This document shows, one piece after another, positions 1-62,896 of a DNA stretch of 64,000 nt. How positions within the stretch are numbered: the first letter of the stretch is position 1; every line of letters starts with the position of its first letter. Origin of the DNA: Euglena gracilis (Eukaryota). The position numbers and the translations under genes were made by a program. The stretch covers positions 32,403,455-32,467,454 of the forward strand of contig CP154954.1 of the NCBI GenBank assembly GCA_039621445.1, written 5' to 3'. The notes under the pieces were generated by a model that was not told the origin of the DNA, did not search any database, and worked only from the letters and a program-made list of their open reading frames with translations.

Positions 1-231
1 CTTCCTGTATCATTGCACGTTCCTGCCCTGTTTCAGCCCTCTCAGCCTACATCAGCCTCACGACGACACTCAATGCTACCCACTCTTCGCCCTTCTGGGT
101 TTCCTGGGAACCGGATGATACTCAATGCCTTATGTTTGGGGTCGCCCCATCTGTGCACAGCCTTCCCCCCGTACACTTCAAATTCAGTAGGCTGTGCCAC
201 TAGTTGGTGGATTTGGTTCGCCCCACCACCG
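1..231 (+). mobile_element. 3' UTR/terminus of a CRE-like non-LTR element (remainder lies outside the window)
   Basis: Pyrimidine-rich stretch ending in the shared 3' motif at 176-231 (CTTCAAATTCAGTAGGCTGTGCCACTAGTTGGTGGATTTGGTTCGCCCCACCACCG). Confidence 0.7.
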
Positions 232-6370: not shown

Positions 6371-6448
6371 GAAGTACTATCCCTGTTTCACTGTACTTTG
6401 CTGTACCATCTGTGCTGTAACATAGCGATCACTGTTCCAATTTGCACT

Positions 6449-13836: not shown

Positions 13837-13914
13837 TTGCGCCTTGCCGCCTTATTTTTTTTTTGGATTACTCTGGTGTGCTGGGTTCGGCCGAAGTCCT
13901 GTGCGGGTGAGAGT
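11215..13914 (+). repeat. 2.7-kb direct duplication, copy 1
   Basis: Near-identical to 36963-39663. Confidence 0.97.
12952..13011 (+). other. 2A peptide TKTGRWSLLSCGDIESNPGP
   Basis: Canonical DIExNPGP in ORF 12811-13101. Confidence 0.9.
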
Positions 13915-36962: not shown

Positions 36963-39663
36963 GATGTCTACCGCGGTCGGTTTCCCGTCTTGCCATGTTG
37001 CCAGCAACAGGTCCGCTGGTCGCAGGGAGGCGTCTGGCTGGTTTGGTACTGGCACCTCGCGTTGGACACTCTGGCCGTTCGCGGGCAGGAGGTTGAATAA
37101 GGCTTCCTGAACGGCGTTGTGTCGGCTTGCAAAGTTGTTCCGAATGCAGCACATGTCGTGATCCCCGTGGATGTCTGCCACAGAATGGCACCCCGCGCAC
37201 GTGGTTGGCGTGTCAGCCAGGGGCAGCCCAAGCCACCACTTTAGGCCAAGGCAGTAGTCGGCGGGCTCAATCACCGTGTGCAGAGCCTCATTGGGGGCTG
37301 CTGCCATCCAGCCGTGGCCGATACCGTTGAGCTGTTCCATAAGACGTGTCTGGTCCCTTGCAGACCACGTGGCGATGAGGGCGTCCACATGGGCCTTGGA
37401 TAGTTGGGTCTGCCACCATTTCTGCGAGGTGTCATTTGCCGATGCAGAGGCGAAGGCTGCTGATGCTGTCAGCCGGTTGCTCTCAGGGTGACGGGTGCCG
37501 AGGACGGAACCAAGGTCACTGGCGGCTTGCTGGCAGAGCCGGTCGTCCGGGGCGGCCGCGTAGCTTGGACATGCGACCCGCTTATGTCCATGTGTGTAGA
37601 ACTGGCACAGGGCGGCGGTACGGGCTGCTGCTTGGTGGGAGGCGGGAATACGAAGGCCACACCCACCTTGTGACAGCGGTAGCGAGGCCTGCAGGCGGTG
37701 GTCTGTGCTGAGGGCTTGGCCGATGATGTCCTCAAAGGCACCGAAGATCGTCTCACTGCACCGAATCACTTCACCCTGCGCCTGGTAGGGATCAGAGGCG
37801 CGCAGGAGGTGGTTAACTCTGCAGCCGTCCAGTCAAGACCTCAGGATGTGGTGCGCCAGCTGGGGGTCAGTGACCGAGGTGACTAGGTCCGCAGCCTGAT
37901 CCAGCTTGGTTGTTGCCTCCGTCCATGCTGCCACTGTGTGCCCTGCCGTGGTTGGGAAGTCGACGGGGCAGCCCAGGACAGTGATCCCAGAGCCCTCGAC
38001 CCAGGGTACAACTTGAACCTTCTCGCGGTCAGGGAGTGCGCCAGCAGCCGGACCCCATACGACGCATTTCGCCGGGTTCAATTGGACCCCGTTGCGTGCG
38101 CCTTCGGTCCGCAGGAACTCGAGGCACTTCTGCAAAGCCCAGGGCTGACCGACAAGCACCCCATCATCCAGGTACCATGAGGACCAGAGCAACTCTGCTT
38201 GCTGGCTGATGGTCTCGCTGATGGTGTGGAGGCCCACTGCAAAGCCGATGGGTCCCAGGGGGCAACGCTGGTGTGTGCCTCTCGTGGAGTGGAGCACGCG
38301 TCCTCCGCTGAACAACGGTGCCGGCTGGCCGTAGGCGAAGCGCAGGTAGTTGAAAAGCGCTGGAGTGCGCGTTTGCGCTTCTTGTAGAAGGACATTTCTG
38401 TCCGGTGTGTTGAAGGCGTTCTTCAGGTCCACCTGAAGAATGGCCCAGTTCCCCTGCGGATCCAGTTTCCGGACCAGACTTTGGGTTGCCATGGCGACGG
38501 ATTCGGACGCATTGGGGACCCCAACCCCTACCTGCAGGGGACTCAGCCGGCCCACTTAGTCCTTGGCGGCGCTGGTGTGTAGGAGGGCTTTCCCAACCAA
38601 TCGCCGAAGGGGAATCGCGCTTACCTGCCGTGACTCCCCGGTGCACCGTGGACCACATTATGATCAACCTGGTGGACAACTCCCCTATTGCCGAGCGCCC
38701 ACCAAGACGGGCCGAGGGAGCCTCTTGTCCTGCGGGGACATTGAAAGCAACCCAGGTCCGCCGGGAGGCAGAAAGAGGTCAGCCACGTCGGTTGTCGTGT
38801 CCGCGGAGGCGCCTCGTGACAGCACAAAACGATTTAGCACACCCAGCTGACGACACACCCGCGGCTGTGGTGGTCGACCAAAGCGGAAAGAACTCTGACC
38901 TCCGTCACGGTGGCCCGCCTGGAATCACCATCCCGCCCCAGCCGGCCAACCTCCAGGAGGTCTTCCTCTGCCGCGCAAACACGGTCCTTCATGTGCCTGC
39001 GGCCAACCAACGTGACGTCTCCGAGACCCTCTCCAATGTCATAGAGGAATACGTCAGCAGGCCAACCATGGACAGCCTCTTCGCCACCCTCGCCTTCCCC
39101 AAACTGGTGCTTCGGACAGTCCAAAGTGCGGGGCGTGAGGCCGATGAGGACATCTCCACCGCGATCAGGCGGCGCGTCCAACTGTTCCGGCAAGGGGACA
39201 ATGGAACGCTGATGACAGAGCTGAGAAACGCCACCCGCCTCCCACCAGCGTCCATCGAGACGCGGGCAGCCAAAAGAGCACGCACCGAGCCCGCCGCCAT
39301 ACCGGCCGCTGTTCTCCGCCGTGCCCGCACGTTGGTGGGGGAAGGGGCCCCTGCGAAGGCCCTGCAAGTTCTCCTGTTCGAAGGAACCCACCGCTCTTCC
39401 GATCCGGCTGTCTGGGTCAAACTGCAGGAGTTGCATCCCGCTGGACGCCCAGTAAGCCTCGATGCGCTGCCCGGCGAAGTACCACCGTTCCCGGATGGTA
39501 AACAGGTGCGGTGGAAGGAGCTCCTCAGGGACGCAATACTCCGTTTCCCCCGGACCTCCTCGCCGGGCCCTTCTTGTTTGCGCCCTTGCGCCTTGCCGCC
39601 TTATTTTTTTTTTGGATTACTCTGGTGTGCTGGGTTAGGCCGAAGTCCTGTGCGGGTGAGAGT
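36963..39663 (+). repeat. 2.7-kb direct duplication, copy 2 (part of element C including the inversion and the 2A at 38701-38760)
   Basis: Near-identical to 11215-13914; 2A reads TKTGRGSLLSCGDIESNPGP. Confidence 0.97.
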
Positions 39664-41919
39664 AATGCACATACCAAGTTCTCAAGGAGGGAGGGGGGGA
39701 GAATCGAGGGTGAGGTGAAGGGCGGTGAAGGGCACAGTACGGAGGGGGGATTGCGAGTGTGAGAGGAAAGTGTACAGCGGCTGGGAAGGTTCAATGGAAC
39801 GGCCATGGAGACTGTTGAGTGTTGAGGTTGTGGCAGCGACAAGTTTAGGTTTTGGGGAGTTGGCTCAGGGAAGGCTCTGTTTTCAGTGCGGTAAGGGTTT
39901 GGACGTCATTGTAGACTTGGTCCATTCGTTGCAAGGTGTTTTTTGCTTGTTTTGTGGTTTAATTGGTCTTGTGGTTAGTTATGCGTACGGTTGGCGTGTC
40001 ATGGAGCCTTCGGCCCTGTGGTCAAATTGCTCACTCCGTTTCATATGGGCAATGGGTGGTGGGTTACACCGTTCCAGATGGCTCCGCCACAGTTCCTCAA
40101 GCCTCAGGCGGGCCAGTTCTCTTGCCAATGTCTGACACAGGTTGCTGATGGTTGGGTACCTTTGTTTACTTTTTTGACAAGTTGTGGATGGTTTAAGGAC
40201 AATTTTTTGTTCTGGGTCTAGGGGTCGTAGTGGTCTTCTTTACAGACAATACGGCTGGTGTATGGTGTTGGTTACTTCTGGATCTGTGTCGTTGCCTGCA
40301 TACCGTCCCCAGATTACTTGTCGCGCGATCTCTCGCGCAACAGTGATTGATAGAAGTTGCCATGTGTCTGCTTCAGTTTTGCGTTTTGACCATGCATCTT
40401 GTTGACCGAGGAGAAGTTTCATCAGTGTTGACATTAAGGATAGCGCTTCTTGGCCTAGGCTGCCATAGCAGTCAACAACAAATGGAAGGCAGGTCCACCC
40501 CCTCCTCCCACAGGTGGCGTCATATTTTGAATGCTTTTCTTTCTCTTGGCGTTCATACCATTCAGTTAGTTCAGCTGTGTCACGCAACGGTCTGTACGGT
40601 GCTGCTGTGTGTCTCACTGTGATATCCACTGCTCCAGGACCATTGGCGTCAAGTCTGCTGATGAGGACATCGCCCGGGCGTGTTCTCTCTAGACCTCCTT
40701 GTTCTTTTTTTGCTGTAAACCCAGCATCATGTGCCAGTTGGAACACAAAGTCCTGGATTGCACCATGTCGCCGCGTGATGCCATTTGAGCTGCAGCATAC
40801 AAGGTGATTACCCAGGTTGTCCATTGGCTTGGTGCAGCGTGGGCACGTTGATCCCGTTGGTGGGCAAACTGGTGCTCACAGTGACCACTTTAGAAATCCT
40901 TTGAATTCGGCAGAAGCGACCAATGTTTTCAGTCCAGAGGATGGTGTGACAGAAGCCCAGGCCATTGCGTGGGGCCGCTGTTGGCTTGCGAACCGGACGG
41001 CGTCTTGACCGTGAAGGTTGGAGGATAATACCTTTTGTCGTTGTTTCGCAAAGCATTCACCCCACCACTTCTGTTGAATGTGAGGGCTTTGGGCTTCGTT
41101 CAGGAGTGATACATCCGCGGCCCATGTTTGCGTTGGGGGAGTTCCTTCGAGGATGGATTTGGCAGAGGACAGGCACTCCGCAGTGTCTTTCGGTACTCCT
41201 CGGTCTGCAAGGCCCAGGGTGCGTCTGCCATTGCTGACAAACGTCACAATGCCGGATATACGTGCTGGGAGACGTTCCCGTGATGGGTCCCGAATTCCGA
41301 GTCCGCCATGACGCACGGGTAGGGTGGCCTGAGCCCATTGGTTGTCATCGATTGGGGATCCAACAATGTTGCTCATTGTGTTCCTGATTTCTTTGGTCAA
41401 CAGAGCACATGCGTCATTTGCCTGCCCCAGTTCTGTTGCACGCAGGAGGTCATTAACTTTGCAAGCATCTAGGCAGGTTCGTAAGAGGCAGAACTGAATA
41501 TGGGCTTGCGGCAGGTTCAAAAGGGCCCGGCAAGCTTTCTGCACACCTGTTGCACGTTCAGCCCACACTTCCCCCGCAAAGCCTCCGCTTTGTGGATGGC
41601 ATACCGGGATTCCCAGGGCCCGTATACCAGAATTAGGGGAGTAGTTCACGATTGGGACTGCACGAAGTGGGCTGTTTTGCGGCATTTCAGCACGATTGGC
41701 TTCTGTTGCTGCAGGGCCCCACAGGCGGCATTTTTTTGCGTTGAGGTGTATGCCTAGTAGCGTCCCCTGTCGTTGAATTTCTGTAATTGCTGCATGTAAT
41801 TGTGGGAGGGTTCCCAGGATGTGTCCATCATCCAAATACCACAATTGCAGTGGCACCACGTCTTGCAAGGACTCGACGAGAGATTGCAACGCCAAGGCGA
41901 ATCCGGCTGGGCCACAAGG

Positions 41920-43264
41920 TGAAGGCGGGGGCCCTGGCCCAGATGGCCTTTTCCTTGGCATTGCAATCTCCAATCTGGACTTTTTCAGTGATATCTGAAC
42001 TTGTCCAAAACTTGATCTTTTCTGCCTTCCAACCTTCCCAGATCACTGGCAATAAGATGAAAACAGTACTGAAACTCCACGCAAACAGTACATGACCCTT
42101 GCCACCTGCAAAGTAAGGCAGCAGGATTCAAATTTAAATTAGGATCTGCGCGAACCTACACCCCCCTGCTTCAAGATCTTGTCAACGACAAGGTCACACA
42201 ACACCGTAGGCCAGTGAGCGCTGGGACCCCCGGGTGTCGTTGGGGTGCCCTTGCCATCATTGATGCCTCAATGACAGAAAAGGAATCCCAACCGCCCAGG
42301 GCATCCCCCCAGAGCCTTTGGAAAAACTGTCGCAAACTGGTCCTTCCCCCCTTTTTCGACCAGCTTGCCACAGTAATCCCCAAAGGGTAGGGAGATGGAC
42401 AACAAACAAACAAAACGGGAGAGAATTGTGATTCGGAGGGGAAAAATTACAAAGCAGAAATGCAAAGCGAACTGACGCGATTGTCCACAGCCAAGTCCAA
42501 TTACCACCACCTCGACGCCAAATCACACACGGCAGAGGGTTTCTGCGTAAACGCTCGGATAACCCACAACCAGAGGGGCAGCAGCCAGCGGCATTGCCAC
42601 AGCCGTACGCGGCGATGACCACATTCGACCACCAGTAATTGAAATTGCGCGGCCATCCACAGCCACAGCAGCAGCAGCCTGCAATGTGAAATCTTCCCAC
42701 GAATCTGTCAAATCTTACTCCTGCTGGCGGCTGGCGGCTGCAATCTGCTGCCGCCTCCTCCGCCTCTGGAGTGTTCTGGGCTTGGGCTTGACTCCATCTG
42801 TCTGAACTTCCCTGTCCACAGTGGTAATCCCAGATGATGATTCCAATCTTGGAGATTGTGATGCCACAGGCATGGCCATGTTAGACACATCCTTTGACGT
42901 TTTCTGGCCTTTCAGACTTGACTTCTGAGGTTTGCTGGCCGGATTCCAATTGCTCTTCTCAGGCCATTGGCTCCCTTGGTGGCAATCTTGGCTTGTCTGT
43001 TTGTACGGGAGGTGTACTGTTTGTGAAGGCGGGGGCCCTGGCCCAGATGGCCTTTTCCTTGGCATTGCAATCTCCAATCTGGCCTTTTTCAGTGATATCT
43101 GAACTTGTCCAAAACTTGATCTTTTCTGCCTTCCAACCTTCCCAGATCACTGGCAATAAGATGAAAACAGTACTGAAACTCCACGCAAACAGTACATGAC
43201 CCTTGCCACCTGCAAAGTAAGGCAGCAGGATTCAAATTTAAATTAGGATCTGCGCGAACCTACA
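41920..43264 (-). mobile_element. Non-autonomous LTR retroelement (TRIM-like), 241-bp LTRs
   Basis: Direct repeats 41920-42160 and 43024-43264, each TG...CA; 4-bp TSD AAGG (41916-41919, 43265-43268); purine tract AGCAGGGGGG before the minus-strand 3' LTR; splits the RT motif QGDP|CGP. Confidence 0.95.
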
Positions 43265-46200
43265 AAGGGTCCCCTTGTTGTACGCCAGAGGCACTCCGAA
43301 GGTGTGGTGACCCACAAAAGAGCGGGCTGTGTTCGACGTAGCAACTCTCGAACCAAACGTACGCCTCCGGGCAGCGTTTAGCCACTTCAGCAAGGACTGT
43401 CTTTCTTTTCACGCAATTAAAAGCATTGCTGAAATCTACCTGTAACAAAGCCCAGGTGTTGTCCTGTTGCATGTGCAGGTGATTCACTTCTTGCTGCAGT
43501 CCCATAGAAATGAGTTCACATGCCCCCTGGACCCCTACACCGCATTGTAGTGGCTGCAGTTCTTTAAGGCGGTCCCTGATTTTGGGGTGCCTCATCAAAT
43601 ATTTGTCCACCAATCGGCGCAGGCATTCCCCAGCTGCAATTGGTCGCGTGCCATCCTTCTTTGGGTCAGAAATGGGTTGGTATTGCCAAGCTCATCAAGG
43701 TTTTCGCTTGGATTGCAGGGTTTTCGAAGAGGAGTCAAACGGGCACCAGCGAAAACCCATGCCGCAGAGTTGTGAATTCCGTTTGTCAAACATGTTCGGA
43801 CGAATTGGTCCAAAATTGTGAGGAGTTGTTCTGATTGTGTCCCCAGGGGATCAGAGAGTATGTCTTTAAGATGATCTGGACGAAGTCCAGACGGTCCTGG
43901 TGAGGACTCCTTCGGGAAAGACATGACTGCTTTCCGTATTTCAATTAGGCGCTCCCTGGTTGCATCTTCACTGAGATCGAATTCGAGGCGAGGGAAGTCC
44001 GGAGGCAGATTTTGCCTTCCAGGTTGGGGTTCAGGAGGGTGCAAGGCAGCCAACCGTTCCAAGATTAGCGGGTCATCTGCATCTTGGATTCCATCAGAAG
44101 TCAGCATGCGGCAGGCTTTACTGACCGCCCCATGGCTGACAAGGCTTTGAACACGGTTGCACAATCTTTCTTGGCTTTCTGCATCGAAATTTTTTGTTTG
44201 ACTTCGTGTTCTCTTCTTTGGGTTTTGTGCATCGCGAATTTGGCGAGTCTCATCCCACGAATCTTCTGTGGACCGGTTGAGGTAGGCATTGGCTCTCTCA
44301 GTAATTTTCCGTCCAACTGCAGCCCAATGGCTTTTCCCGCTCCGCTTCAGTGGAGCAAGCACAGCTTGTGGGAAGCACCAAAGTGTGTGTAGGGTTTCCC
44401 ATCCTGGTTTTGATACAAAGCGACTGAGGGTGCTGCAAAAGGCGAGCCCAACGTTTCGCAACGCTCACCGTGGGATATGGACCAACGTGCCCCGCGTGTC
44501 TTGGGAAATTTCTTCCCAAGATGGCTGCAGTGGTGGGCAAGGTTGCGAGAAAGGAGTGACTTGCAGCGTATCAGCGTTCGTCGAGGATTGCGCTGGTGCT
44601 ACAGCCACGGGGTGCTGCGGCCTTCGACCATTTAGGCACTCTTGCTCTTGCCCTTGTGGTGAGGACGGCACAAAATTCTCAATCATCCCCTGGCCCTGCG
44701 GCGCACACCCGTGAATTTCGGAAATCGCTGAGCGCACCCGGGACTCTAGTTCGTCAATGACCATGATTTGCTCAGCTGCAGCTGCCCCGGGGCATTACAA
44801 CCTGGGACAAAGTAGGCGAGAACAGCGGCGTCGAGTGCATTGGAAACCAAGATCCAAGGAGTGGTCGCTCCGTCGGCGGCACAGCAGAGGTCTGTGCGGC
44901 TGAGGCCATTTCAACGTCCTCCTGCTGGGGAGGGCGGGTTTTTGTGGGACCTGGGTTGCTTTCAATGTCGCCACAACTGGCAAGGCTTTTACCCCTGCCA
45001 CACCAGGGGGGACTGTACCCATACCGCGTTTTTTCCTGGTCAATCGGTTGCCGTACGTGGTTGGCGTGCCCTGGGGCCACATTTGACAACTTAGAAGGCC
45101 CTGAGGCCATAGTGCAAGTTGGTCGTCCGCAATGGGGCCGGGTGCTAGGTCGCAGGGATAGGGGTCCTTCACGTGGGGTTATCCGGTGAATAGGTCCTGG
45201 CTCAAGCTGAACGTCACCACAAACTGTGACATCTTGGTGTGTGGGCCTCTCGGTTTTGACAGCGTGGTTAGGGCTTATGTCACCTTGTTGGTCACCGCGT
45301 TGGCAGTTTGGTTGTCTTTGTGCTGTCCGTCGTGCCCTCCGGACGTGACGGTTAACAGAAACTGCTGATCTTGTCGGACGTAACAAGGCCATGATGTCCA
45401 GGATATCAACGGTGTGTACATTCAATGGGGAGAGGTCGGACGAGGAGGGCTCCGTTGGAGGTACTCTGGGGAAAGTGCTATCGGCCGGAGAACGTTGGGT
45501 AGTGTCATTAGGTGAATGGGGGGCAGGAAGAAATGAAAAGCCTCGCCGATGTTGCATACTTCGGACCATAAACATGTCAGCAACCACATAATGGCATGCA
45601 CACTCGATGGGGAGTCGTGACGTGGTGGTCGATGTGGCCATAGCCCTATGAGCACAAACAGAACTCCTCTCAAAACTTCCCAACATTCGGTGAGCTCATA
45701 GACGGTAGTGTCCTCAACCAGGACATCGGTAGGGAAGGCGTCTCGGAACGTTTGAAGTTCTGCATCCACCTCTTGAAGGCTCGCCAGCAGTCTGTGCCGA
45801 ACGAAGTTTTCTTGAGGTCCCCTGGAGACAGGGATTGTCGGTCTTTCCATGGTGGCCAGAAGGAAGTAGATGGGTCCTGGTTGTGTTTGGACGTCACCAT
45901 GGGTGGTGATTCGTTCCCCCCTTCCAGTCGGCTGGTGTCCTGCTGAAAACTTTTCCCGGGTTTGTTCTGCCGTGTATCCTCGGCTTGTTACAGAGTGTAC
46001 TTTTGCTGTCTCAGTAGATGGAAATACTGTGGCTGAAAAAAACAGGGCAGGTTTCCCTGTGGTGCAAGCACCAACCTGCCGAGGCAGTGATGGTTTCAAT
46101 GTCACACAAAGTGCATTTCAGCCAGTATGTAGCTTTGGGAAGAAGTGTACGGGAGGAGCCATCGGGGCCTTGCCGCAATGGTATTTCGGCCTTGATCCGA

Positions 46201-48309
46201 AAGAAATCAGTCATGTTCATGGCAACAAGTTGGTCCAATAGATCCATGACTTCACCACAGGGTCCATCAAATGCCGTCGGCGGCATTTGATGGACCTGGA
46301 TGAAAATGCGTCTTCCGGATTCTTCCCCCCGTGTGGGCCTGCAGAGCAGAGGTGTATGTTGCCGACTGTTTCTGCCATGTGGAATTTTTTTGTGGCAGCA
46401 CAAGAGTAATAGTCCGACAGGGAGTCATTTGAGTCATCAAGATCGCTGGCGGTCCATACAGACGGGGAAAGACGATCAGCCAATCCAACCTCACACGCAA
46501 ACTGTAACGGTCTGGGCATGTCATCCATCTGCCAAATTCTTGGGCAGTATCGCCAGGCAATGGGCAGGGTTGGCTCTCGGGAGGGTGTCAGCCTCTTCTT
46601 TGTCCTCGGGGGGCGGACTGCTTCTGCTGCAGGCACTTTTTGTTTGATTTTTTGTGCGATAGCTCGGCGTACTTTTTCTGTGTGCAACATGTCCACTCCC
46701 TCCTCATGTTGTTCGTCTGGTCGGTGTTGATGAAGAATCTGGGCGATTCTGATCCGTTCCAGGATGAGGTTCTTTTTTGGTGGGTGGGGGGGGGCGATTG
46801 CACAACGTTTGGCGCTGCCAGTGGCAACGTGAGTTTCATGTCTGTGTGCACCAATTTTTGTGACTGCCGAATGTCCACTGTTCTGCCAATGTCGACCCAC
46901 TTTTCCTGAATGTTGGCCAGTTTTCTGGCGACCATCTCGTGAAATAAAATGCCTCCTGCTTGCTGTCTCATGCGCCTTCTCCAAAAAAATTCTTCCCTGA
47001 AGGACCGAAACTCTGGTGTTTCCCAAACTGGGACCCCTTCAAGGGGGGTGTTGGGTGGGGAGGCTGGTAAATCTGTTGCCTGGGGGGGGTCTTGCCATTG
47101 AAAGGGGCTGGGTTCCTCCTGCAGGATCACTGTGCCCAGTTTTGCCCACTGTGTGCCATCAAACATGGTGGGTTTTGTTGGAATTTTAAAAATGCGAAAT
47201 GGTGGGCCTGGCCCCCCCCCTCTTGCAGGGGGGCTGATATTGGGGGCTGGTGCTGAGATCTTTTGGGGTTGCATTTGGCTGGGGTTGATGATCCTCCTCT
47301 TTTGGGTGGGGGGGGGTTGTTTTGCAGACTCCCTTTGATACGGAGTTGCCTTGGGATGAAATTCTTGATCCACTTGTTTTACTGGGTGAAGGTATTGTGT
47401 TGAGTTGTCCCCTCTTTGGGGGGGACTTTGTGAGACAAAAGACAAAGGGAAAGCTGCAGGCAGAAGAGCACATTGGAAGGCTGATGGTGATGCCAGTACC
47501 ACATCTGGGATTAAGGGTGCTGGCAGGCTAGGGTTGTGTAATGGTGTTGGGGGGTACTTCTGAACTCTGGCCTGTGCTGAGAAAGGCTCTGAGGCTTCTG
47601 AAGAGTTCAGCCTCTCTCCTTCTCTGCTCCTCTTCTCTGATCCAATTCTTCCTCTGGTCATCTTCTCTGCTCCAGTTTGATTGCAGTGGTTGCTGAGATT
47701 GCTGGGGTTCACCCCAAAGGTTGGTCTGTGATGGAATGTACATTTGTATGATTGATGTGACAGATGGACATACTTGATTTCTGCCCACTGGTGGGCATTG
47801 GAATGGGTTGTTCACTGGAATGCCCACTGATGGGCCTGACTGTGGAATGCCCACTGATGGGCTTGCTGTACAGGGGGGCCCCAGACTCACTTGCTGATGG
47901 AGCTGGGGCTGAGGAGAACTCTGTTGAGATATATGATAACTGGGTCGACCTCTCTGCCATGGGGGCTTGTAATCTCTTCCAAACCTTCTCTGTAGGTACT
48001 CTTTATGCTCTTCCCTCTCTTGCCATGTCCTCTTCTTTCTCTGTGAGCTGCTGTGTTGACTTTCTCTGTCACTATGTACAGGGCGGTCAGCAATGAGTCG
48101 TTGTGCCACAGCAGTGGTTAGCACCGGCACCAACAGCGGTAACAACATCTTGGCCAGCAGCTCCAACTGTCCAGTGTCCACTGCAACAGTAGGTGTACTT
48201 GAAGGGTTGGTTGTGGTAGCAGCTTGGTTGACAAGGGGTGTATTGTCTTGAGTCTTGGGGTCTTCTGGAGGGCCATCCGGCCACTTTGCAGCCATGGTGA
48301 TTATGCAGA

Positions 48310-48334
48310 CGAAAAAAAATAGACACTCAGAAAG
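48310..48334 (-). other. Euglenid spliced-leader exon copy CTTTCTGAGTGTCTATTTTTTTTCG
   Basis: Matches 25 nt of the 26-nt Euglena SL as I recall it; 14 nt upstream of the element's ATG. Confidence 0.92.
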
Positions 48335-51300
48335 CCTGATGAGTGTCTTATGAGAATTTTTTTTTGGAAATTGGAACTCTCCGACCTGTCTTCAGCGGCC
48401 TAGGAGGATCACTCCGAGCCGAAGTCCTGTGCGGGTGAGAGTAATGCACATACCAAGTTCTCAGGGTGGGAGGGGCGAGAGTCGAAGGTGAAATAGAAGG
48501 GCGGTGAGGGGCACAGTACGGAGGGGAGATAGCGAGTGTGAGAGGAAAGTGTACAGCGGCAGGGAAGGTTCAATAGAACGGCCACGGGGACTGTTGAGTG
48601 TTGAGGTTGTGGCAGCGACAAGTTTAGGTTTGGGTTTAGGGGAGTTGGCGCAGGGAAGGCTCTGTTTTCAGTGCGGTAAGGGTTTGGACGTGTTTTTAGT
48701 CTCGTGGTTGGTTATGCGTACGGTTGGTGTGTCATGGAGCCTTCGGCCCTGTGGTCAAATTGCTTACTCCGTCTCATATGGGCAATGGGTGGTGGGATCC
48801 ACCGTTCCAGATGGCTCCACCACTGTTCCTCAAGCCAATTGACAGCCACTTCTCTTGTCAATGTGGGACACAGGTTGCCGATGGTTGGGTACCGTTGTTT
48901 ACTTTTTTGACAAGTTATGAATGGTTTAAGGACAATTGTTTGTTCTGGGTCTAGGGGTCGTAGTGGTCTTCTTTACAGACAATACGGCTGGTGTATGGTG
49001 TTGGTTACGTCTGGATCTGTGTCGTTGCCTGCATACCGTCCCCAGATTACTTGTCGCGCGATCTCTCGCGCAACAGTGATTGATAGAAGTTGCCATGTGT
49101 CGGCCTCAGTTTTGCGTTTTGACCATGCATCTTGTTGACCGAGGAGAAGCTTCATCAGTGTTGACATTAAGGATAGCGCTTCTTGGCCTAAGCCGCCATA
49201 GCAGTCAACAACAAATGGAATGCAGGTCCATCCCATCCTCCCACAGGTGGCGTCATATTTTGAATGTTTTTCCTTCTCTTGGCGTTCATACCATTCAGTT
49301 AGATCAGCTGCGTCACGCAACGGTCTGTACGGTGCTGCTGTGTGTCTCACTGTGATATCCACTGCTCCAGGACCATTGGCGTCAAGTCTGCTGATGAGGA
49401 CATCGCCCGGGCGTGTTCTCTCTAGACCTCCTTGTTCTTTTTTTGCTGTAAACCCAGCATCATGTGCCAGTTGGAACACAAAGTCCTGGATTGCACCATG
49501 TCGCCGCGTGATGCCATTTGAGCTGCAGCATACAAGGTGATTACCCAGGTTGTCCATTGGCTTGGTGCAGCGTGGGCACGTTGATCCCGTTGGTGGGCAA
49601 ACTGGTGCTCCCAGTGACCACTTTAGAAATCCTTTGAATTCGGCAGAAGCAACCAATGTTTTCAGTCCAGAGGATGGTGTGACAGAAGCCCAGGCCATTG
49701 CGTGGGGCCGCTGTTGGCTTGCGAACCGGACGGCGTCTTGACCGTGAAGGTTGGAGGATAATACCTTTTGTCGTTGTTTCGCAAAGCATTCACCCCACCA
49801 CTTCTGTTGAATGTGAGGGCTTTGGGCTTCGTTCAAGAGTGATACATCCGCGGCCCATGTGTGCGTTGGGGGAGTTCCTTCGAGGATGGATTTGGCAGAG
49901 GACAGGCACTCCGCAGTGTCTTTCGGTACTCCTCGGTCTGCCAGGCCCAGGGTGCGTCTGCCATTGCTGACAAACGTCACAATGCCGGATATCCGTGCTG
50001 GGAGACGTTCCCGTGATGGGTCCCGAATTCCGAGTCCGCCATGACGCACAGGTAGGGTGGCCTGAGCCCATTGGTTGTCATCGATGAGGGATCCAACAAT
50101 GTTGCTCATTGTGTTCCTGATTTCTTTGGTCAACAGAGCACATGCGTCATTTGCCTGCCCCAGTTCTGTTGCACGCAGGAGGTCATTAACTTTGCATGCA
50201 TCTAGGCAGGTTCGTAAGAGGCAGAACTGAATATGGGCCTGCGGCAGGTTCAAAAGGGCCCGGCAAGCTTTTGCACACTTGTTGCACGTTCAGCCCACAC
50301 TTCCCCCGCAAAGCCTCCACTTTGTGGATAGCATACCGGGATCCCAGGGCCCGTATACCAGAATCGGGGGAGTAGTTCACGATTGGGACTGCACGAAGTG
50401 GGCTGTTTTGCGGCATTTCAGCACGATTGGCTTCTGTTGCTGCAGGGCCCCACAGGCGGCATTTTTTTTTTTTGTTGTGTATGCCTAGTAGCGTCCCCTG
50501 TCGTTGAATTTCTGTAATTGCTGCATGTAATTGTGGGAGGGTTCCCAGGATGTGTCCATCATCCAAATACCACAATTGGAGTGGCACCACGTCTTGCAAG
50601 GACTCAACGAGAGATTGCAGCGCCAAGGCGAATCCGGCTGGGCCACAAGGGTCCCCTTGTTGTACGCCAGAGGCACTCCGAAGGTGTGATGACCCACAAA
50701 AGAGCGGGCTGTGTTCGACGTAGCAACTCTCGAACCAAACGTACGCCTCCGGGCAGCGTTTAGCCACTTCAGCAAGGACTGTCTTTCTTTTCACGCAATT
50801 AAAAGCATTGCTGAAATCTACCTGTAACAAAGCCTAGGTGCTGTCCTGTTGCATGTGCAGGTGATTTACTTCTTGCTGCAGTCCCATAGCAATGAGTTCA
50901 CATGCCCCCTGGACCCCTACACCGCATTGTAGTGGCTGCAGTTCTTTAAGGCGGTCCCTGATTTTGGGGTGCCTCATCAAATATTTGCCCACCAATCGGC
51001 GCAGGCATTCCCCAGCTGCAATTGGTCGCGTGCCATCCTTCTTTGGGTCAGGAATGGGGTTGGCATTGCCAAGCTCATCAAGGTTTTCGCTTGGATTGCA
51101 GGGTTTTCGAAGAGGAGTCAAACGGGCACCAGCGAAAATCCATGCCACTGAGTTGTCAATTCCGTTTGTCAAACATGTTCGGATGAATTGGTCCAAAATT
51201 GTGAGGAGTTGTTCAGATTGTGTCCCCAGGGGATCAGAGAGCATGTCTTTGAGATGATCTGGACGAAGTCCAAACGGTCCCGGTGAGGACTCCTTCGGGA

Positions 51301-52274
51301 ATGACATGACTGCTTTCCGTATTTCAATTAGGCGCTCCCTGGTTGCATCTTCACTGAGATCGAATTCGAGGCGAGGGAAGTCCGGAGGCAGATTTTGCCT
51401 TCCAGGTTGGGGTTCAGGAGGGTGCAAGGCAGCCAACCGTTCCAAGATTAGCGGGTCATCTGCATCTTGGATTCCATCAGAAGTCAGCATGCGGCAGGCT
51501 TTACTGACCGCCCCATGGCTGACAAGGCTTTGAACACGGTTGCACAATCTTTCTTGGCTTTCTGCATCGAAATTTTTTGTCTGACTTCGTGTTCTCTTCT
51601 TTGGGTTTTGTGCATCGCGAATTTGGCGAGTCTCATCCCACGAATCTTCTGTGGACCGGTTGAGGTAGGCATTGGCTCTCTCAGTAATTTTCCGTCCAAC
51701 TGCAGCCCAATGGCTTTTCCCGCTGCGCTTCAATGGAGCAAGCACAGCTTTTGGGAAGCACCAAAGTGCGTGTAGGGTCTCCCATCCTGGCTTGGACACA
51801 AAGCGACTGAGGGTGCTGCAAAAGGCGAGCCCAACGTTTCGCAACGCTCACCGTGGGATATGGACCAACGTGCCTCGACTGTCTTGGGAAATTTCTTCCC
51901 AAGATGGCTGCAGTGGTGGGCAAGGTTGCGAAAAGGGAGTGACTTGCACCGTATCAGCGTTCGTCGAGGATTGCGCTGGTGCTGGGGCCACGGGGGGCTG
52001 CGGCCTTCGACCATTTAGGCACTCTTGCTCTTGCCCTTGTGGTGAGGACGGCACAAAATTCTTCATCATTCCCCTGGCCCTGCGGCGCACACCCGGGGCC
52101 CCCGTTCAAACTGGGAAACGGCATTATAGCCTGGGACAAAGTAGGCGAGAACAGCGGCGTCGAGTGCATTGGAAACCAAGATCCAAGGAGTGGTCGCTCC
52201 GTCGGCGGCACAGCAGAGGTCTGTGCGGCTGAGGCCATTTCAACGTCCTCCTGCTGGGGAGGGCGGGTTTTTGT

Positions 52275-52335
52275 GGGACCTGGGTTGCTTTCAATGTCGC
52301 CACAACTGGCAAGGCTTTTACCCCTGCCACACCAG
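52275..52335 (-). other. 2A peptide CGRGKSLASCGDIESNPGP
   Basis: Canonical motif; same peptide in copy 1 at 44946-45005. Confidence 0.9.
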
Positions 52336-53609
52336 GGGGGACTGTACCCATACCGCGTTTTTTCCTGGTCAATCAGTTGCCGTACATGGTTGGCGTGCCC
52401 TGGGGCCACAGTTGACAACTTAGAAGGCCCTGGGGCCAGAGGGCAAGTCGGTCGTCGGCAATGGGGCCGGGTGCTAGGTCGCAGGGATAGGGGTCCTTCA
52501 CGTGGGGTTATCCGGTGAATAGGTCCCGGCTCGAGCTGAACGTCACCACAAAGTGTGACATCTTGGTGTGTGGGCCTTTCGGCTATGACAGCGTCGTTAG
52601 GGCTTATGTCACCGTGTTGGTCACCTCGTTGGTAGTTTGGTTGTCTTTGTGCTGTCCGTCGTGCCCTCCGGACATGACGGTCAACAGAAACTACTGATCT
52701 TGTCGGACGTAAGAAGGCCATGATGTCCAGGATATCAACGGTGTGCACATTCAATGGGGAGAGGTCGGACGAGGAGGGCTCCGTTGGGGGTACTCTGGGG
52801 AAAGTGCCTCTCGGCCGGAGAACGTTGGTAGTGTCATTAGGTGAATAGGGGGCAGGTAGAGGTGAAAGGCCTCGCCGATGTTGCATACTTCGGACCATAA
52901 ACAAGTCAGCAACCACATAATGGCATGCACACTCGATGGGGAGTCGTGACGTGGTGGTCGATGTGGCCATAGCCCTATGAGCACAAACAGAACTCCTCCC
53001 AAAACTTCCCAACATTCGGTGAGCTCATAGACGGTAGTGTCCTCAACCAGGACATCGGTAGGGAAGGCGTCTCGGAAAGTTTGAAGTTCTGCATCCACCT
53101 CTTGAAGGCTCGCAAGCAATCTGTGCCGAACGAAGTTTTCTTGAAGTCCCCTGGAGACAGGGATTGTCGGTCTTTCCATGGTGGCCAGACGGAAGTAGAT
53201 GGGTCCTGGTTGTGTTTGGACGTCACCATGGGTGGTGATTCGTTCCCCCCTTCCAGTCGGCTGGTGTCCTGCTGAAAACTTTTCCCGGGTTTGTTCTGCC
53301 GTGTATCCTCGGCTTGTTACAGAGTGTACTTTTGCTGTCTCAGTAGATGGAAATACTGTGGCTGAAAAAAACAGGGCAGGTTTCCCTGTGGTGCAAGCAC
53401 CAACCTGCCGAGGCAGTGATGGTTTCAATGTCACACAAAGTGCATTTCAGCCAGTATGTAGCTTTGGGAAGAAGTGATTGGGAGGAGCCATCGGGGCCTT
53501 TCCGCAACGGTAGTTCGGCCTTGATCCGAAAGAAATCAGTCATGTTCATGGCAACAAGTTGGTCCAATAGATCCATGACTTCACCACAGGGGCCATTAAC
53601 TGCCGTCAG

Positions 53610-53675
53610 CGGGCCTGGATTGGTTTCCACATCACCCATTGTTGTCAGGGAATCACCTCGCCCCGTCTTCAGATA
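53610..53675 (-). other. 2A peptide LKTGRGDSLTTMGDVETNPGP
   Basis: Canonical motif; deleted down to ...HPGP in copy 1 (~46291). Confidence 0.88.
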
Positions 53676-55699
53676 CGCGTCTTCCGGCTTCTTCCCCCCG
53701 TGTGGGCTTGCAGAGCGGGGGTGTATGTTGCCGACTGTTTCTGCCATGCGGATTTTTTTTGTGCCAGCACAAGAGTAATAGTCCGACAGGGAGTCATTTG
53801 AGTCATCAAGATCGCTGGCGGTCCATACAGACGGGGAAAGACGATCAGCCAATCCAACCTCACACGCAAACTGTAACGGTCTGGGCATGTCTTCCATCTG
53901 CCAAATTCTTGGGCAGTATCGCCAGGCAATGGGCAGGGTTGGTTCTCGGGAGGGTGTCAGCCTCTTCTTTGTCCTCGGGGGGCAGACTGCTTCTGCTGCA
54001 GGCACTTTTTGTTTGATTTTTTGTGCGATAGCTCGGCGTACTTTATCTATGTGCGACATGTCCACTCCCTCCTCACGTTGTTCCTCTGGTCGGTATTGAT
54101 GAAGAATCTGGGCGATTCTGATCCGTTCCAGGATAAGTACTTTTTTGGTGGGGGGGGCGATTGCACAACGTTTGGCGCTGCCAGTGGCAACGTGAGTTTC
54201 ATGTCTGTGTGCACCATTTTTTGTGACTGCCGAATGTCCACTGTTCTGCCGATGTCGACCCACTTTTCCTGAATGTTGGCCAGTTTTCTGGCGACCATCT
54301 CGTGAAATAAAATGCCTCCTGCTTGCTGTCTCATGCGCCTTCTCCAAAAAAAATTCTTCGCTGAGGGACCGAAACTCTGGTTTTTCCCAAACTGGGACCC
54401 CTTCCAGGGGGGTGTTGGGTGGGGAGGCTGGTAAATCTTTTGCCTGGGGGGGGTCTTGCCATGGAAAGGGGCTGGGTTCCTCCTGCAGGATCACTGTGCC
54501 CAGTTTGGCCCACTGTGTGCCATCAAACGTGGTGGGTTTTGTTGGAATTTTAAAAATGCGAAACGGTGGGCCTGGCCCCCCCCCTCTTGCAGGGGGGGCT
54601 GATATTGGGGGGGGTGCTGAGATTTTTTGGAGTTGCATTGGGCTGGGGTTGATGATCCTCCTCTTTTGGGTTGGGGGGGTTGTTTTGCCAACTCATTTTG
54701 ATTTGGAGTTGCCTTGGGATGAAATTCTTGATCCATTTGTTTTACTGGGTGAACATATTGTGTTGAGTTGTCCCCTCTTTGGGGGGGATTTTGTGAGACA
54801 AAAGGGAAAGCTGCAGGCAGAAAAGCAAAGGCTGATGGTGATGCCAGTACCACATCTGGGATTAAGGGTGCTGGCAGGCCAGGGTTGTGTAATGGTGTTG
54901 GGAGGGGGGGGACTTGAGTACTCTGGCCTGTGCTGAGAAAGGCTCTGAGGCTTCTGAAGAGTTCAGCCTCTCTCCTTCTCTGCTCTTCTTCTCTGGTCCA
55001 ATTCTTCCTCTGGTCATCTTCTCTGCTCCAGTTTGATTGCAGTGGTTGCTGAGATTGCTGGGGTTCACCCCAAAGGTTGGTCTGTGATGGAATGTACATT
55101 TGTATGATTGATGTGACAGATGGACATACTTGACTTCTACCCACTGGTGGGCATTGGAATGGGCTGTTCATTGGAATGCCCACTGATGGGCCTGACTGTT
55201 GAATGCCCAATGCTGGGCTTGCTGTACAGGGGGGCCCCAGACTCACTTGCTGATGGAGCTGGGGCTGAGGAGAACTCTGTTGAGATATATGATAACTGGG
55301 TCGACCTCTCTGCCATGGGGGCTTGTAATCTCTTCCAAACCTTCTCTGTAGGTACTCTTCATGCTCTTCCCTCTCTTGCCACGTCCTCTTCCTTCTATGT
55401 GAGCTGCTGTCTTGACTTTCTCTGTCACTATGTACAGGGCGGTCAGCAGTGAGTCGTTGTGCCACAGCAGTGGTTAGCACAGGCACCAACAGCGGTAACA
55501 ACATCTTGGCCAGCAGCTCCAACTGTCCAGTGTCCACTGCAGAAGTAGGTGTACTTGAAGGGTTGGTTGTGGTAGCAGCTTGATTGACAAGGGGTGTATT
55601 GTCTTGAGTCTTGGGGTCTTCTGGAGGGCCATCCGGCCCCTTTGCAGCCATGGTGGTTATGCAGACGAAAAAACTTCTTTTTTTATTTATTTATGCAGA

Positions 55700-60351: not shown

Positions 60352-60448
60352 TAAAACCTATTTTGTCTGGGCCCGACGCCTGTCTTGATATTCATTCGAC
60401 CGAACCGCCTGGACGGAAATATGGTCAAAAAAGTGGTTTTTGGCCCAT

Positions 60449-60612
60449 TAACGGGCGCCTGAATGGAAATCGACTGACATAAACGGCGCCTGAATGGAAA
60501 TCGACCGACATAAACGGGCGCCTGAATGGAAATCGACTGACATAAACGGGCGCCTGAATGGAAATCGACTGTCATAAACGGGCGCCTGAATGGAAATCGA
60601 CTGACATAAACG
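60449..60612 (+). repeat. 32-bp minisatellite AAACGGGCGCCTGAATGGAAATCGACTGACAT, about 5 copies
   Basis: Direct head-to-tail repeats. Confidence 0.92.
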
Positions 60613-60790
60613 GTTTCCGATGTCTTGGAAATCGACCAACCTTTTGTTTCCTTTTTTGAACGCCTTTTTGTTCCGTTTTGGGACATTTTCAGTTTCAGCC
60701 TGAAACCTGTTAATGTCGACCAACATTTTGTCTCTTTTTTTTCGGAATGCTTTTTTCTTTTTTTCAATCTCTATATCAAGAACTGCTTCT

Positions 60791-60894
60791 TAAACGCAGA
60801 CTCTGACCTGAGTCTGCGTTTCGAAACGCAGACTCAGGCCGAATAACAGACTCAGCGTTTCGAAACAGAGACTCAGGCCAGAGTCTGCGTTTTA
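60791..60894. mobile_element. Small palindromic MITE-like element
   Basis: TAAACGCAGACTCTGACCTGAGTCT... inverted as ...AGACTCAGGCCAGAGTCTGCGTTTTA, with internal palindromes. Confidence 0.7.
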
Positions 60895-61324
60895 TTACAA
60901 ACACAGATTTTGACCAAAGCCATGAACACAGCCTTTTGCTATGAACACAGCCTTGGCCCGAAATCCGATGATGTCAATATAATTGCAATACAGGCGTCGA
61001 GCCCAGAAAATAGGGTTGACATTGCCAAATAACTCCTCACCCGAAAGCTTTTCTTTTAGATGACCAGTGATGACAATTGGTTCAGGACACATATGCCGAA
61101 TGCTTTTTCTGAAGATCCAGAAAATAATAATCTTAAGTACCGTCCTTCCGTCTGTTCCATCCAAAGTTCAGCCAGCTGTGATCACCTGGCCACAAAATTT
61201 GGTTTTTGTCTGATCCAGAACTCCTCCACAACCCCATAGGACCAAAAATGTCGAAAAAATGGAAATACAAAATGTCCAAAAAATCACTAAAAATTCCCAA
61301 TCTGACTAGCAACAGATTTCAATG

Positions 61325-61476
61325 GAGTGGAAATCGACTTTCATAAACGGGCGCCTGAATGGAAATCGACTGTCGTAAACGGGCGCCTGAATGGAAATCG
61401 ACTGACATAAACGGGCGCCTGAATGGAAATCGACCGACATAAACGGGCGCCTGAATGGAAATCGACCGACATAAAC
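61325..61476 (+). repeat. Second block of the 32-bp minisatellite
   Basis: Same unit and orientation as 60449-60612. Confidence 0.9.
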
Positions 61477-62896
61477 AATTTCAGCTTGAAATCCGTTAAT
61501 GTCAGTAGAATTTCAAGACAGGCGTCGGGCCCAGAAAATAGGTTTTAATGGAGAAACTTCACCGGTGAAGTTCACCGGTGAAGGTCACCGCCATGTATTT
61601 CCAATGAAGAGGGGGGGGGGAGGGGGGGTCCCGCCCGAAAAACCCAAAGTCACCGCCTGATCTCCCCTAAATGACCCCCCTCTTGTCCCGGCCCAGACCC
61701 CGGAGGGTAACTTAGGCGGGGGGGGGGGTCACTTAGGGGGGGTCGGAAAAAAAGGGTGTCGGACACCCCCCACCCCTTTTTTCGGAATTTTTTTTGTGAA
61801 ATTTGTGTTCTCTGGCATCATTTCCACTAGAAGGAAAACTCACGATTCTGAAAATCTCAAAAAAATCGGTCGTTTTTGAAGACTTTTTTCTTGAAAAAAT
61901 TTCCATTGTCTGGGCCGGGACCCCGGAGGGTCATTTAGGGGGGGGGGGTCGTTTAGGGGGGGGTAATGGTAGTCGCCACCGACCATGGTCGCTAGCGACC
62001 ATTTTCTAGCGAATAGTCACCAGCGACCATTGGTCGGGCCGACTAGTCGGCCCGACCACCATTTTTAGTCCACCCCCCCCTCTAAAAAAGTTTTTAACCC
62101 CCCCCCTCCAAAAAAATTTCATTCAAATGACTCGAAACCCACCCAAATGCCCCAGAAACTCCCATTCGGGGTCCATTTGCAAAAAATTTTGGGTAATATC
62201 TTCTTTTTGATCCAGTTCTGTGAAACTTGGGAGTGAAGGGGCTCCGTGCGGAAAATCGTGGGTTACCAAATTGCGGGTCGGGCCGACCTGACCGGCCCGA
62301 CCTGTGGGTGCTTATCGACCTGTGTTGGTCGGGCCGACCAGGTCGGGCCGACCCACAATATTCCGCACTACCCCCCCCTTCTGGAGATTTAAGCCCCCCC
62401 TGAAAAAAAACGTTTATCCAAATCACCCCAAAACCAGTCAAAACCCACTTAAATGGCTTGAGAACACCCCAATCGGGGGTGAATATGCAAAAACTTGGGG
62501 GGGGGGGAATGCCCAAAAAGGGGTCGCACCGTCAAATAGGGGGTGCTTCAGCACAGAATCCCCCCGGGCAGTCAATTACCACCCCCCCCCCCCTAATTGA
62601 CCGTGGGACCTCTCCACGGGACCCCCCTTTTGGTCAATTAGGGGGGGGGGTCAATTAGGGGGGGGGTACCGTCAATTAGGGGGGGGTACCATCAATTAGG
62701 GGGTGCTTCAGCACGGAATCCCCCCGGGTAGTCAATTAGGGGGGGGGGTCGAAAAATTTTTCCCCGGGGCGATCGGTCAATTAGGGGGGGGGTCAATTAG
62801 GGGGGGGGGGGGGTGGTGGTAGGGGGTTGAAAAAATTTTCCTGGGGCGTTTGGTCAATTATTAGAGGGGGGTTTGAATTAGGGGGGGGGAGGTGGT

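What the first reader, a model, noticed from the sequence alone, without database searches (positions are those of the whole stretch)
43013..43196. Miniature LTR element with a Tf1-like 11-nt self-priming site instead of a tRNA PBS
Seen: on the minus strand the 5' LTR is followed immediately by CAAACAGTACA (43023-43013), not TGG. Its exact 11-nt complement TGTACTGTTTG lies inside the LTR (43196-43186), about 40 nt downstream of an AT-rich TTTAAA box. Known: S. pombe Tf1 primes with the first 11 nt of its own transcript. Inference: a self-priming non-autonomous LTR element in a euglenid, recently inserted (LTRs differ very little, TSD intact).
Basis: partly seen in the sequence, partly recalled or inferred. 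Interest (0 to 1): 0.78.

Follow-up and report, generated by a model that had tools for sequence, protein, structure and literature searches.

The report
Small LTR retroelement, probably self-primed
A 1.35-kb non-coding LTR retrotransposon sits inside a reverse-transcriptase gene, and the site where its DNA copying must start matches a piece of its own repeat rather than a tRNA end, as in the self-priming known from fission-yeast Tf1 and some plant elements.

Summary
On the minus strand lie two 241-nt LTRs (TG..CA, 1 difference), an 863-nt non-coding interior, a purine tract before the 3' LTR and a 4-bp target duplication. An uninterrupted paralogue in the same window (50647-50650) and contigs of two DNA runs show the empty site. 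The 11 nt that abut the 5' LTR (43023-43013) are the exact complement of LTR positions 69-79 (43196-43186). No TGG follows for 56 nt. A match this long arose in 4 of 20000 shuffles and 92 of 20000 real-sequence controls.

This meets a published working criterion for predicted self-priming. That is my best reading (0.55), but it is not shown:
- The transcript start is unmapped.
- The TTTAAA box region carries indels in related copies.
- Neither 11-mer showed a listed change in related copies, so covariation cannot be judged.
- The match is part of a longer imperfect inverted repeat (LTR 55-100 against 243-287) that gives a second, 9-bp register.
- No autonomous partner, host tRNA set or organism name could be obtained.

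Predicted self-priming is already reported in fungi, vertebrates and 12% of surveyed plant elements. I class this as a new member of a known kind, of modest interest.

The parts
43265..43268 (-). 5' copy of the 4-bp target-site duplication (CCTT on the minus strand)
   Evidence: the empty-site joint has 4 letters that fit both sides
43024..43264 (-). 5' LTR, 241 nt, TGTAGG...CCTTCA
43236..43241 (-). TTTAAA box (LTR 24-29); the surrounding stretch (LTR about 13-36) has indels in related copies
   Evidence: table 4, read on the 3' LTR at 42125-42148
43210..43229 (-). pyrimidine-rich tract ending in CAG (LTR 36-55), splice-acceptor-like by eye; the long inverted repeat begins at its last base
   Evidence: sequence; pair list; inference only
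43186..43196 (-). candidate self-primer, LTR 69-79 (TGTACTGTTTG)
43165..43173 (-). second copy of the motif, LTR 92-100 (GTACTGTTT), complementary to 9 nt of the primer site; changed in related copies
   Evidence: (T98>C and neighbouring changes)
43013..43023 (-). primer-binding site, 11 nt (CAAACAGTACA), starting at the first base after the LTR
42978..43011 (-). leader arm of the extended inverted repeat (element 254-287), including a second PBS-like copy at 42994-43003
42161..43023 (-). internal region, 863 nt, no recognisable coding domain
   Evidence: 0 Pfam families for the 143-aa and 207-aa frames
42809..42810 (-). place where contigs of both RNA-type runs branch: another species shares the 3' part and differs upstream
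   Evidence: tables 7 and 8 (records 4 and 6)
42161..42172 (-). polypurine tract (GAAGCAGGGGGG) abutting the 3' LTR
41920..42160 (-). 3' LTR, 241 nt
41916..41919 (-). 3' copy of the target-site duplication
50647..50650 (-). empty target site in an uninterrupted paralogue of the host reverse-transcriptase element

Best explanation
This is a recently inserted, non-autonomous LTR retrotransposon of 1345 bp: 241-nt LTRs, a non-coding interior, a polypurine tract and a 4-bp target duplication. It must be copied and integrated by enzymes of an unseen autonomous partner. Minus-strand DNA synthesis is most likely primed by the element's own RNA. LTR positions 69-79 fold back onto the 11 nt that abut the 5' LTR. 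An RNase H cut after G79 would leave a 3'-OH that is extended through U5. The strong-stop DNA would then transfer to the 3' LTR, as in Tf1. Shown: the anatomy, the insertion, the exact complementarity and its register, and related copies in other data sets. Inferred: that the pairing forms in vivo, the cut, the transcript start and the source of the enzymes.
For: Anatomy and insertion. The 11/11 complement at offset 0 from the LTR end arose in 4 of 20000 shuffles and 92 of 20000 real-sequence controls. The 11-mer occurs nowhere else in the window. No TGG lies within the first 56 nt after the LTR (sequence printed). Only the minus orientation has a purine tract, and the plus orientation gives at most a 6-nt LTR complement. 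The element meets the published prediction criterion (PMC6317226). In related copies about 3-5% diverged, the primer site is unchanged in three contigs: X15 record 3 and X2 record 12 with every difference accounted for, and X16 record 5 with 15 of 16 accounted for. The LTR 11-mer is unchanged in X16 record 5, with 14 of 14 differences accounted for. The base just outside the duplex (43012) differs in all four runs. The element family forms closed LTR-plus-interior cycles in one RNA run and one run guessed to be RNA.
Against: The transcript start is unknown. The TTTAAA box region is not conserved. Neither 11-mer varies among the listed differences, so there is no covariation, and the related contigs share their changes and are probably one lineage. 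The unconstrained minimum-energy fold does not use the 11/11 pairing. It pairs the primer site with LTR 92-100 and pairs LTR 69-86 with a second PBS-like copy (-65.4 kcal/mol; -67.2 against -62.7 when the 11/11 pairing is forced). The extended duplex is matched by 139 of 1500 real-sequence controls. One family variant (T238>C) would break the drawable U5-end duplex of a Tf1-like three-duplex structure. No partner with an RNase H was found. Host tRNAs, including half-tRNAs, could not be compared.
Confidence: 0.55

Rival explanations
1. The primer is a cellular RNA, such as a tRNA half or another small RNA. The LTR-to-leader complementarity is then a long leader stem with another role, for example packaging, dimerisation or control of translation.
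For: The 11-mer is part of a longer imperfect inverted repeat, LTR 55-100 against 243-287, with helices 55-62:280-287, 69-79:262-271, 80-86:254-259 and 92-100:243-251. Half-tRNA primer sites without TGG are known in plant copia lineages (PMC6317226). No host tRNA set was available for comparison.
Against: The perfect 11-nt match ends exactly at the LTR boundary, where a primer must sit. No tRNA or Rfam family lies in the window, and the 11-mer has no other copy there. The stem as a whole is not unusual for this window (139 of 1500 controls).
Confidence: 0.22
2. The element is self-primed, but from the second register or from an internal position. Either LTR 92-100 is the primer, or the RNA begins upstream of position 69 and the primer is cut out of the inside of the transcript.
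For: The unconstrained fold pairs 92-100 with 243-251. The inverted repeat reaches back to LTR 55, which only matters if that part is transcribed.
Against: Related copies carry T98>C and nearby changes that disrupt the 92-100 helix, while 69-79 stays intact among the listed differences. The second register is only 9 bp and stops 1 nt short of the LTR end.
Confidence: 0.1
3. The complementarity is chance in a defective relic with no working primer site.
For: 92 of 20000 real-sequence controls reach 11 nt. Only one insertion is seen in the window.
Against: LTRs with 1 difference in 241 and an intact duplication point to recent, successful reverse transcription and integration. Related copies exist in DNA and RNA-type runs.
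Confidence: 0.06

Closest known systems
Tf1/Tf2 of Schizosaccharomyces pombe and the Tf1/sushi group (Tj1, Tosmo, Tcry, Tcn1)
   Same: There is no tRNA-type primer site. An 11-nt stretch of the 5' LTR is the exact complement of the sequence that follows the LTR's terminal CA. [quoted passage not shown]
   Different: Tf1-group elements are autonomous chromoviruses with gag, protease, RT, integrase and a chromodomain, and this one encodes nothing. In Tf1 the primer is the mapped 5' end of the mRNA and a three-duplex 'pretzel' structure is required (PMC10085805, passage). Here the start is unmapped and the two extra duplexes can be drawn but have no support.
Plant lineages predicted to self-prime (Tcn1 chromoviruses; TAR Ty1/copia, including Houba and Osr-1)
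   Same: The prediction rests on the same sequence criterion. [quoted passage not shown]
   Different: Those are full-length coding elements of land plants. The host here is an unnamed eukaryote and the element is a short deletion-type derivative.
TRIMs (terminal-repeat retrotransposons in miniature) and other small non-autonomous LTR elements
   Same: Terminal direct repeats of 100-250 bp, a short non-coding interior that starts with a primer site and ends with a purine tract, and dependence on a partner (PMC6934838, passage).
   Different: TRIMs are described there as under 1000 bp with a tRNA-complementary primer site. This element is 1345 bp and has a self-complementary site. Bivalve TRIMs also lack a canonical site, but no mechanism was proposed for them.

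Membership tests
LTR retrotransposon | Two direct long terminal repeats ending TG...CA | tested here: met
   241 nt each, 1 difference; termini TGTAGG and CCTTCA form a 5-of-6 inverted pair
LTR retrotransposon | Short target-site duplication with a matching empty site | tested here: met
   4 bp. The paralogous empty site at 50647-50650 and the joint 41915>43265 in DNA runs X2 and X9 may be paralogous copies rather than alleles.
LTR retrotransposon | Polypurine tract abutting the 3' LTR | tested here: met
   42172..42161, 11 of 12 purines
LTR retrotransposon | Primer site complementary to the 3' end of a tRNA (starts TGG) | tested here: not met
   No TGG in the first 56 nt after the LTR (sequence). 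Host tRNAs were not available.
TRIM / small non-autonomous LTR element | No coding capacity for gag or pol | tested here: met
   0 Pfam families for the two longest internal frames, at E up to 0.01 and up to 1
TRIM / small non-autonomous LTR element | Total length under about 1000 bp (as defined in PMC6934838) | tested here: not met
   1345 bp
TRIM / small non-autonomous LTR element | Several copies, with an identifiable autonomous partner | tested here: inconclusive
   Variant copies 90-99% alike occur in four runs. No partner was found: window scan, protein search (uninformative), pattern scans.
Self-priming LTR elements (Tf1 type) | At least 10 bp of the 5' LTR complementary to sequence starting 0-5 bp after the LTR | tested here: met
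   11 of 11 at offset 0; criterion from PMC6317226
Self-priming LTR elements (Tf1 type) | The self-primer is the 5' end of the element's mRNA | not testable with these tools
   Only contigs were served, and contigs cannot show RNA starts
Self-priming LTR elements (Tf1 type) | RNase H cut at the end of the duplex yields the primer | not testable with these tools
   Needs cDNA intermediates and the partner's enzyme
Self-priming LTR elements (Tf1 type) | Three-duplex 'pretzel' structure: PBS-adjacent sequences pair with LTR sequences downstream of the primer | tested here: inconclusive
   Two duplexes can be drawn: 80-86 with 254-259 and 124-129 with 235-240 (my count of positions in the constrained fold). 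There is no covariation, and the family variant T238>C would break the second.
Tf1/sushi chromovirus clade | RT/integrase phylogeny and a chromodomain | not testable with these tools
   The element has no coding sequence and no partner was found

The most novel reading that the evidence does not exclude
The self-primer is not the 5' end of the RNA but lies inside it. The LTR carries a pyrimidine tract ending in CAG at positions 36-55, and the long inverted repeat begins at its last base. If the host matures its RNAs by spliced-leader trans-splicing (as euglenids are known to, from recall), the element's 5' end might be set by trans-splicing or by read-through transcription. An RNase H cut after G79 would then discard whatever lies upstream. 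The element would need no precise promoter of its own and could still rebuild full LTRs.
Probability: 0.07. Interest if true: 0.75.

Novelty: new member of a known kind. Interest (0 to 1): 0.35.

Why it matters
If confirmed, predicted self-priming would extend from fungi, vertebrates and plants to another eukaryotic lineage. It would also show that a stripped-down, non-coding derivative keeps only the cis signals: self-primer, primer site, purine tract and LTR ends. Its autonomous partner should then have an RNase H able to cut an RNA duplex. The practical gain is a short motif pair that can be used to find the partner and related families in the host genome. The mechanism itself is already known, so the gain is modest.

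Tried and rejected
- **Whole genome:** none is held for this window. Copy census, partner search and comparison with host tRNAs were therefore impossible.
- **Window scans:** no tRNA or tmRNA and no Rfam family. The bacterial-type promoter and terminator scan was uninformative.
- **Other LTR copies in the window:** none, neither solo nor paired.
- **Pattern scans with a conserved U5 stretch:** 0 matches in viral contigs. Metagenome contigs gave 1 match (L001), a 24-nt chance match in a 62% G+C contig.
- **Protein search for a longer relative of the 207-aa internal frame:** none among 670 candidates. This is uninformative, because the host element's own RT finds only relatives of 57% identity or less from metagenomes, so the organism's proteins are not in that collection.
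- **ESM Atlas:** closed or not holding the sequences.
- **Earlier findings of this scan:** nothing, in four look-ups.
- **Primary Tf1 papers and the Tf1/Tf2 review:** not held.
- **Plus-strand orientation of the element:** rejected, with no purine tract and at most a 6-nt LTR complement.
- **Poly(A) or leader-joined ends in RNA contigs:** none among the loose ends listed (9 rows not shown). Contigs drop such tips, so nothing follows.
- **Parts of the stretch without RNA-run cover:** no conclusion drawn.

Full report
**Observation.** Reading 41500-44500 on the minus strand, with repeat finding and BLAST of the window against itself, shows two direct repeats, 43264..43023 and 42160..41919, that differ at one position (LTR position 182). 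Trimmed to TG..CA, each LTR is 241 nt (TGTAGG...CCTTCA). The 11 nt that follow the 5' LTR (CAAACAGTACA, 43023..43013) are the exact reverse complement of LTR positions 69-79 (43196..43186), with the match starting at offset 0 from the LTR end. With up to one mismatch, the 11-mer occurs nowhere else in the 64 kb (3 matches, all in the element). The first TGG after the LTR lies 57 nt downstream (sequence).

**Chance.** I asked how often a complement of 11 nt or more, starting 0-3 nt after a 241-nt segment, is found inside that segment. It arose in 4 of 20000 mononucleotide shuffles of the LTR. It arose in 92 of 20000 controls of the same geometry taken at random places and strands of this window. 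The window is rich in repeats and local hairpins, so the second figure is the harsher control. The match is unlikely to be chance, but the case is not overwhelming.

**Anatomy and insertion.**
- The 3' LTR is preceded by GAAGCAGGGGGG (42172..42161, 11 of 12 purines).
- In the opposite orientation there is no purine tract, and the sequence after the LTR has at most a 6-nt complement in the LTR. The element therefore reads on the minus strand.
- The 863-nt interior has open frames of 143 and 207 aa with no Pfam match at E up to 0.01 or up to 1.
- The element interrupts a reverse-transcriptase frame (RVT_1...QGDP | CGPAGF...YLDDG).
- The window holds an uninterrupted paralogue of that host element. 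Segment 39639-41919 aligns to 48418-50650 (93.8%) and 43265-44711 aligns to 50647-52095 (97.1%). The two alignments overlap by exactly 4 nt. Printing the three junctions shows CCTT duplicated on either side of the insertion.
- Contigs of two DNA runs (X2, X9) also join 41915 to 43265, with 4 letters fitting both sides. Because the host element is repeated, these may be paralogues rather than empty alleles.
- One difference in 241 between the LTRs, at a position where related copies agree with the 3' LTR (43083), fits a recent insertion.

**A longer inverted repeat.**
- The unconstrained fold of the RNA from 43196 to 42985 (-65.4 kcal/mol, z = -2.36, 2 of 200 shuffles fold as well) does not use the 11/11 pairing. 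It pairs the primer site with a second copy of the motif (LTR 92-100, 9 bp). It pairs LTR 69-86 with a second PBS-like copy downstream (element 254-271).
- Duplex folding of LTR 40-120 against element 225-300 gives helices 55-62:280-287, 69-79:262-271 (one bulge), 80-86:254-259 and 92-100:243-251, and -48.7 kcal/mol in all. That energy is reached by 5 of 1000 dinucleotide shuffles, but also by 139 of 1500 real-sequence controls from the window.
- Forcing the 11/11 pairing costs about 4.5 kcal/mol (-62.7 against -67.2).
- So the primer site has two possible partners. The first, 69-79, is perfect and reaches the LTR boundary. The second, 92-100, is shorter.

**Related copies.**
- A word search of public runs listed 24 runs, of which 20 hold the stretch or a part of it (14 hold half of its words or more). 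These include one metatranscriptome and several runs guessed to be RNA. Organisms are coded.
- I laid 4 of the 24 (X15 RNA, X16 RNA by guess, X2 and X9 DNA) at 80% likeness. All are contigs, so starts, ends and strands of RNAs cannot be read.
- In X16 one 1131-nt contig (depth 205) runs interior - LTR - interior with a 30-nt overlap of its ends. In X15 two contigs close the same cycle. This is what a de Bruijn assembly gives for R-U5...U3-R transcripts with R of 30 nt or more. Circles, tandems or DNA in the library would give the same picture.
- These copies differ from the window at about 3-5% of positions. Among the 40 differences listed (14 more not shown), none lies in either 11-mer.
- Counting differences per contig, the primer site is intact in X15 record 3 (8 of 8 accounted for), in X2 record 12 (3 of 3) and in X16 record 5 (15 of 16). 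The LTR 11-mer is intact in X16 record 5 (14 of 14). In X9 record 21, which carries both 11-mers, 6 of 8 differences are accounted for.
- The base just outside the duplex (43012) and LTR position 238 differ in all four runs.
- LTR positions 88, 90, 98, 102 and 105 differ too, which disrupts the second register.
- The stretch around the TTTAAA box carries several indels in every run.
- The contigs share most of their changes and are probably one lineage. The evidence for constraint is therefore weak, and covariation cannot be judged.
- In both RNA-type runs a further contig shares 42809 downstream and differs upstream (records 4 and 6; depth 342 in X16). It may be the partner or another derivative. 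I could not follow it.

**Searches that did not help.**
- No genome is held.
- The window has no tRNA or Rfam family.
- A conserved U5 pattern found nothing in viral contigs and only a 24-nt chance match in metagenome contigs.
- A protein search with the 207-aa internal frame found no longer relative. The host element's RT finds only metagenome proteins of 57% identity or less, so the organism itself is not in that collection and the negative result says nothing.
- The scan's earlier notes were empty.
- The claim 'euglenid' could not be tested.

**What is known (passages seen, not whole papers).**
- Priming needs a three-duplex 'pretzel' structure. In it, sequences adjacent to the primer site pair with LTR sequences downstream of the self-primer. 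The LTR always ends in CA before the site (PMC10085805).
- Tj1 of S. japonicus is read the same way (PMC4600332).
- A survey of plant elements predicted self-priming for 12% of them (Tcn1 and TAR lineages). Its criterion was a complement of at least 10 bp to a region starting 0-5 bp after the 5' LTR (PMC6317226). I did not open its Additional files 1 and 5, which list the sites.
- TRIMs are described as under 1000 bp with a tRNA-type site. Bivalve TRIMs lack one, and no mechanism was proposed for them (PMC6934838).
- Euglena gracilis is reported to hold many LTR elements, Ty3-like ones among them (PMC11252322; bioRxiv 10.64898/2026.05.21.726589).
- Searches of the held library found no paper that joins self-priming with Euglena or with a miniature non-autonomous LTR element, apart from the bivalve paper's mention.
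- The primary papers of Levin, of Lin and Levin, and of Butler et al. were seen only as citations, and three look-ups by id failed.

**Mechanism.**
- Best reading (0.55): a partner's Gag packages the RNA. LTR 69-79 anneals to the 11 nt after U5. The partner's RNase H cuts after G79. The 3'-OH is extended through U5 to the cut. The strong-stop DNA moves to the 3' LTR, from which 79..1 are copied. The purine tract primes the plus strand. Integrase makes the 4-bp duplication.
- Only the cis anatomy is shown. Every enzymatic step is inferred by analogy.
- This scheme does not need the RNA to begin exactly at position 69, because anything upstream of the cut is discarded and restored from the 3' LTR. 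An upstream start would therefore not refute self-priming as such.
- Rivals: a cellular primer, such as a tRNA half, with the inverted repeat serving as a leader stem (0.22); self-priming from the second register or from inside a longer 5' end (0.10); chance in a relic (0.06).

**Verdict.** The element works like a Tf1-type self-primer by the sequence criterion. Membership of the Tf1/sushi clade cannot be tested without coding sequence. It is TRIM-like but longer than the usual definition. Novelty: a new member of a known kind. Interest 0.35.

Noticed in passing
window 39639-48317 and 48418-55673: The host of the insertion is itself a repeat unit of about 7.3-8.8 kb, present twice head to tail (94-97% alike). 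It encodes an RVT_1 reverse transcriptase. By eye, its C-terminal part carries a Cys/His cluster followed by a PD...D-type motif (40243-40875, minus), with no Pfam match. Its relatives in the protein collection come only from metagenomes, at 57% identity or less.
   Followed up: partly
window 38560-38850 (+), 44772-45695 (-), 45422-46117 (-): Open frames near the reverse-transcriptase elements contain 2A-like peptide words (GDIESNPGP twice, also GDVQLEPGP and GDVQTQPGP). The link of NPGP to ribosome-skipping 2A peptides is recalled, not tested.
   Followed up: no
window about 13866-36960: Five tandem copies of a unit of about 5.1 kb (spacings 5084-5300), with long open frames and no credible Pfam match (one frame gave a weak sub-threshold FlxA hit, E 0.0017). 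The array is flanked by a 2.7-kb direct repeat, 11215-13914 and 36963-39663, 98.9% alike.
   Followed up: no
window 42809/42810: In both RNA-type runs a second, more abundant contig path shares the element's 3' part and diverges upstream of 42809. It may be the autonomous partner or another deletion derivative.
   Followed up: partly
window 60421-61546 and 6436-6981: Short tandem arrays: a 32-nt period in two blocks (60421-60649 and 61286-61546) and a 102-nt period (6436-6981).
   Followed up: no
Read laying, table 7: Many loose ends of the DNA-run contigs (X2, X9) end in the same 19-letter word, which I recall as a library adapter. It is an artefact of those assemblies, not biology.
   Followed up: no
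L001 2001-2024: The only metagenome match to the U5 pattern is a 24-nt identity inside a 62% G+C contig with no other likeness to the element. It is a chance match.
   Followed up: yes
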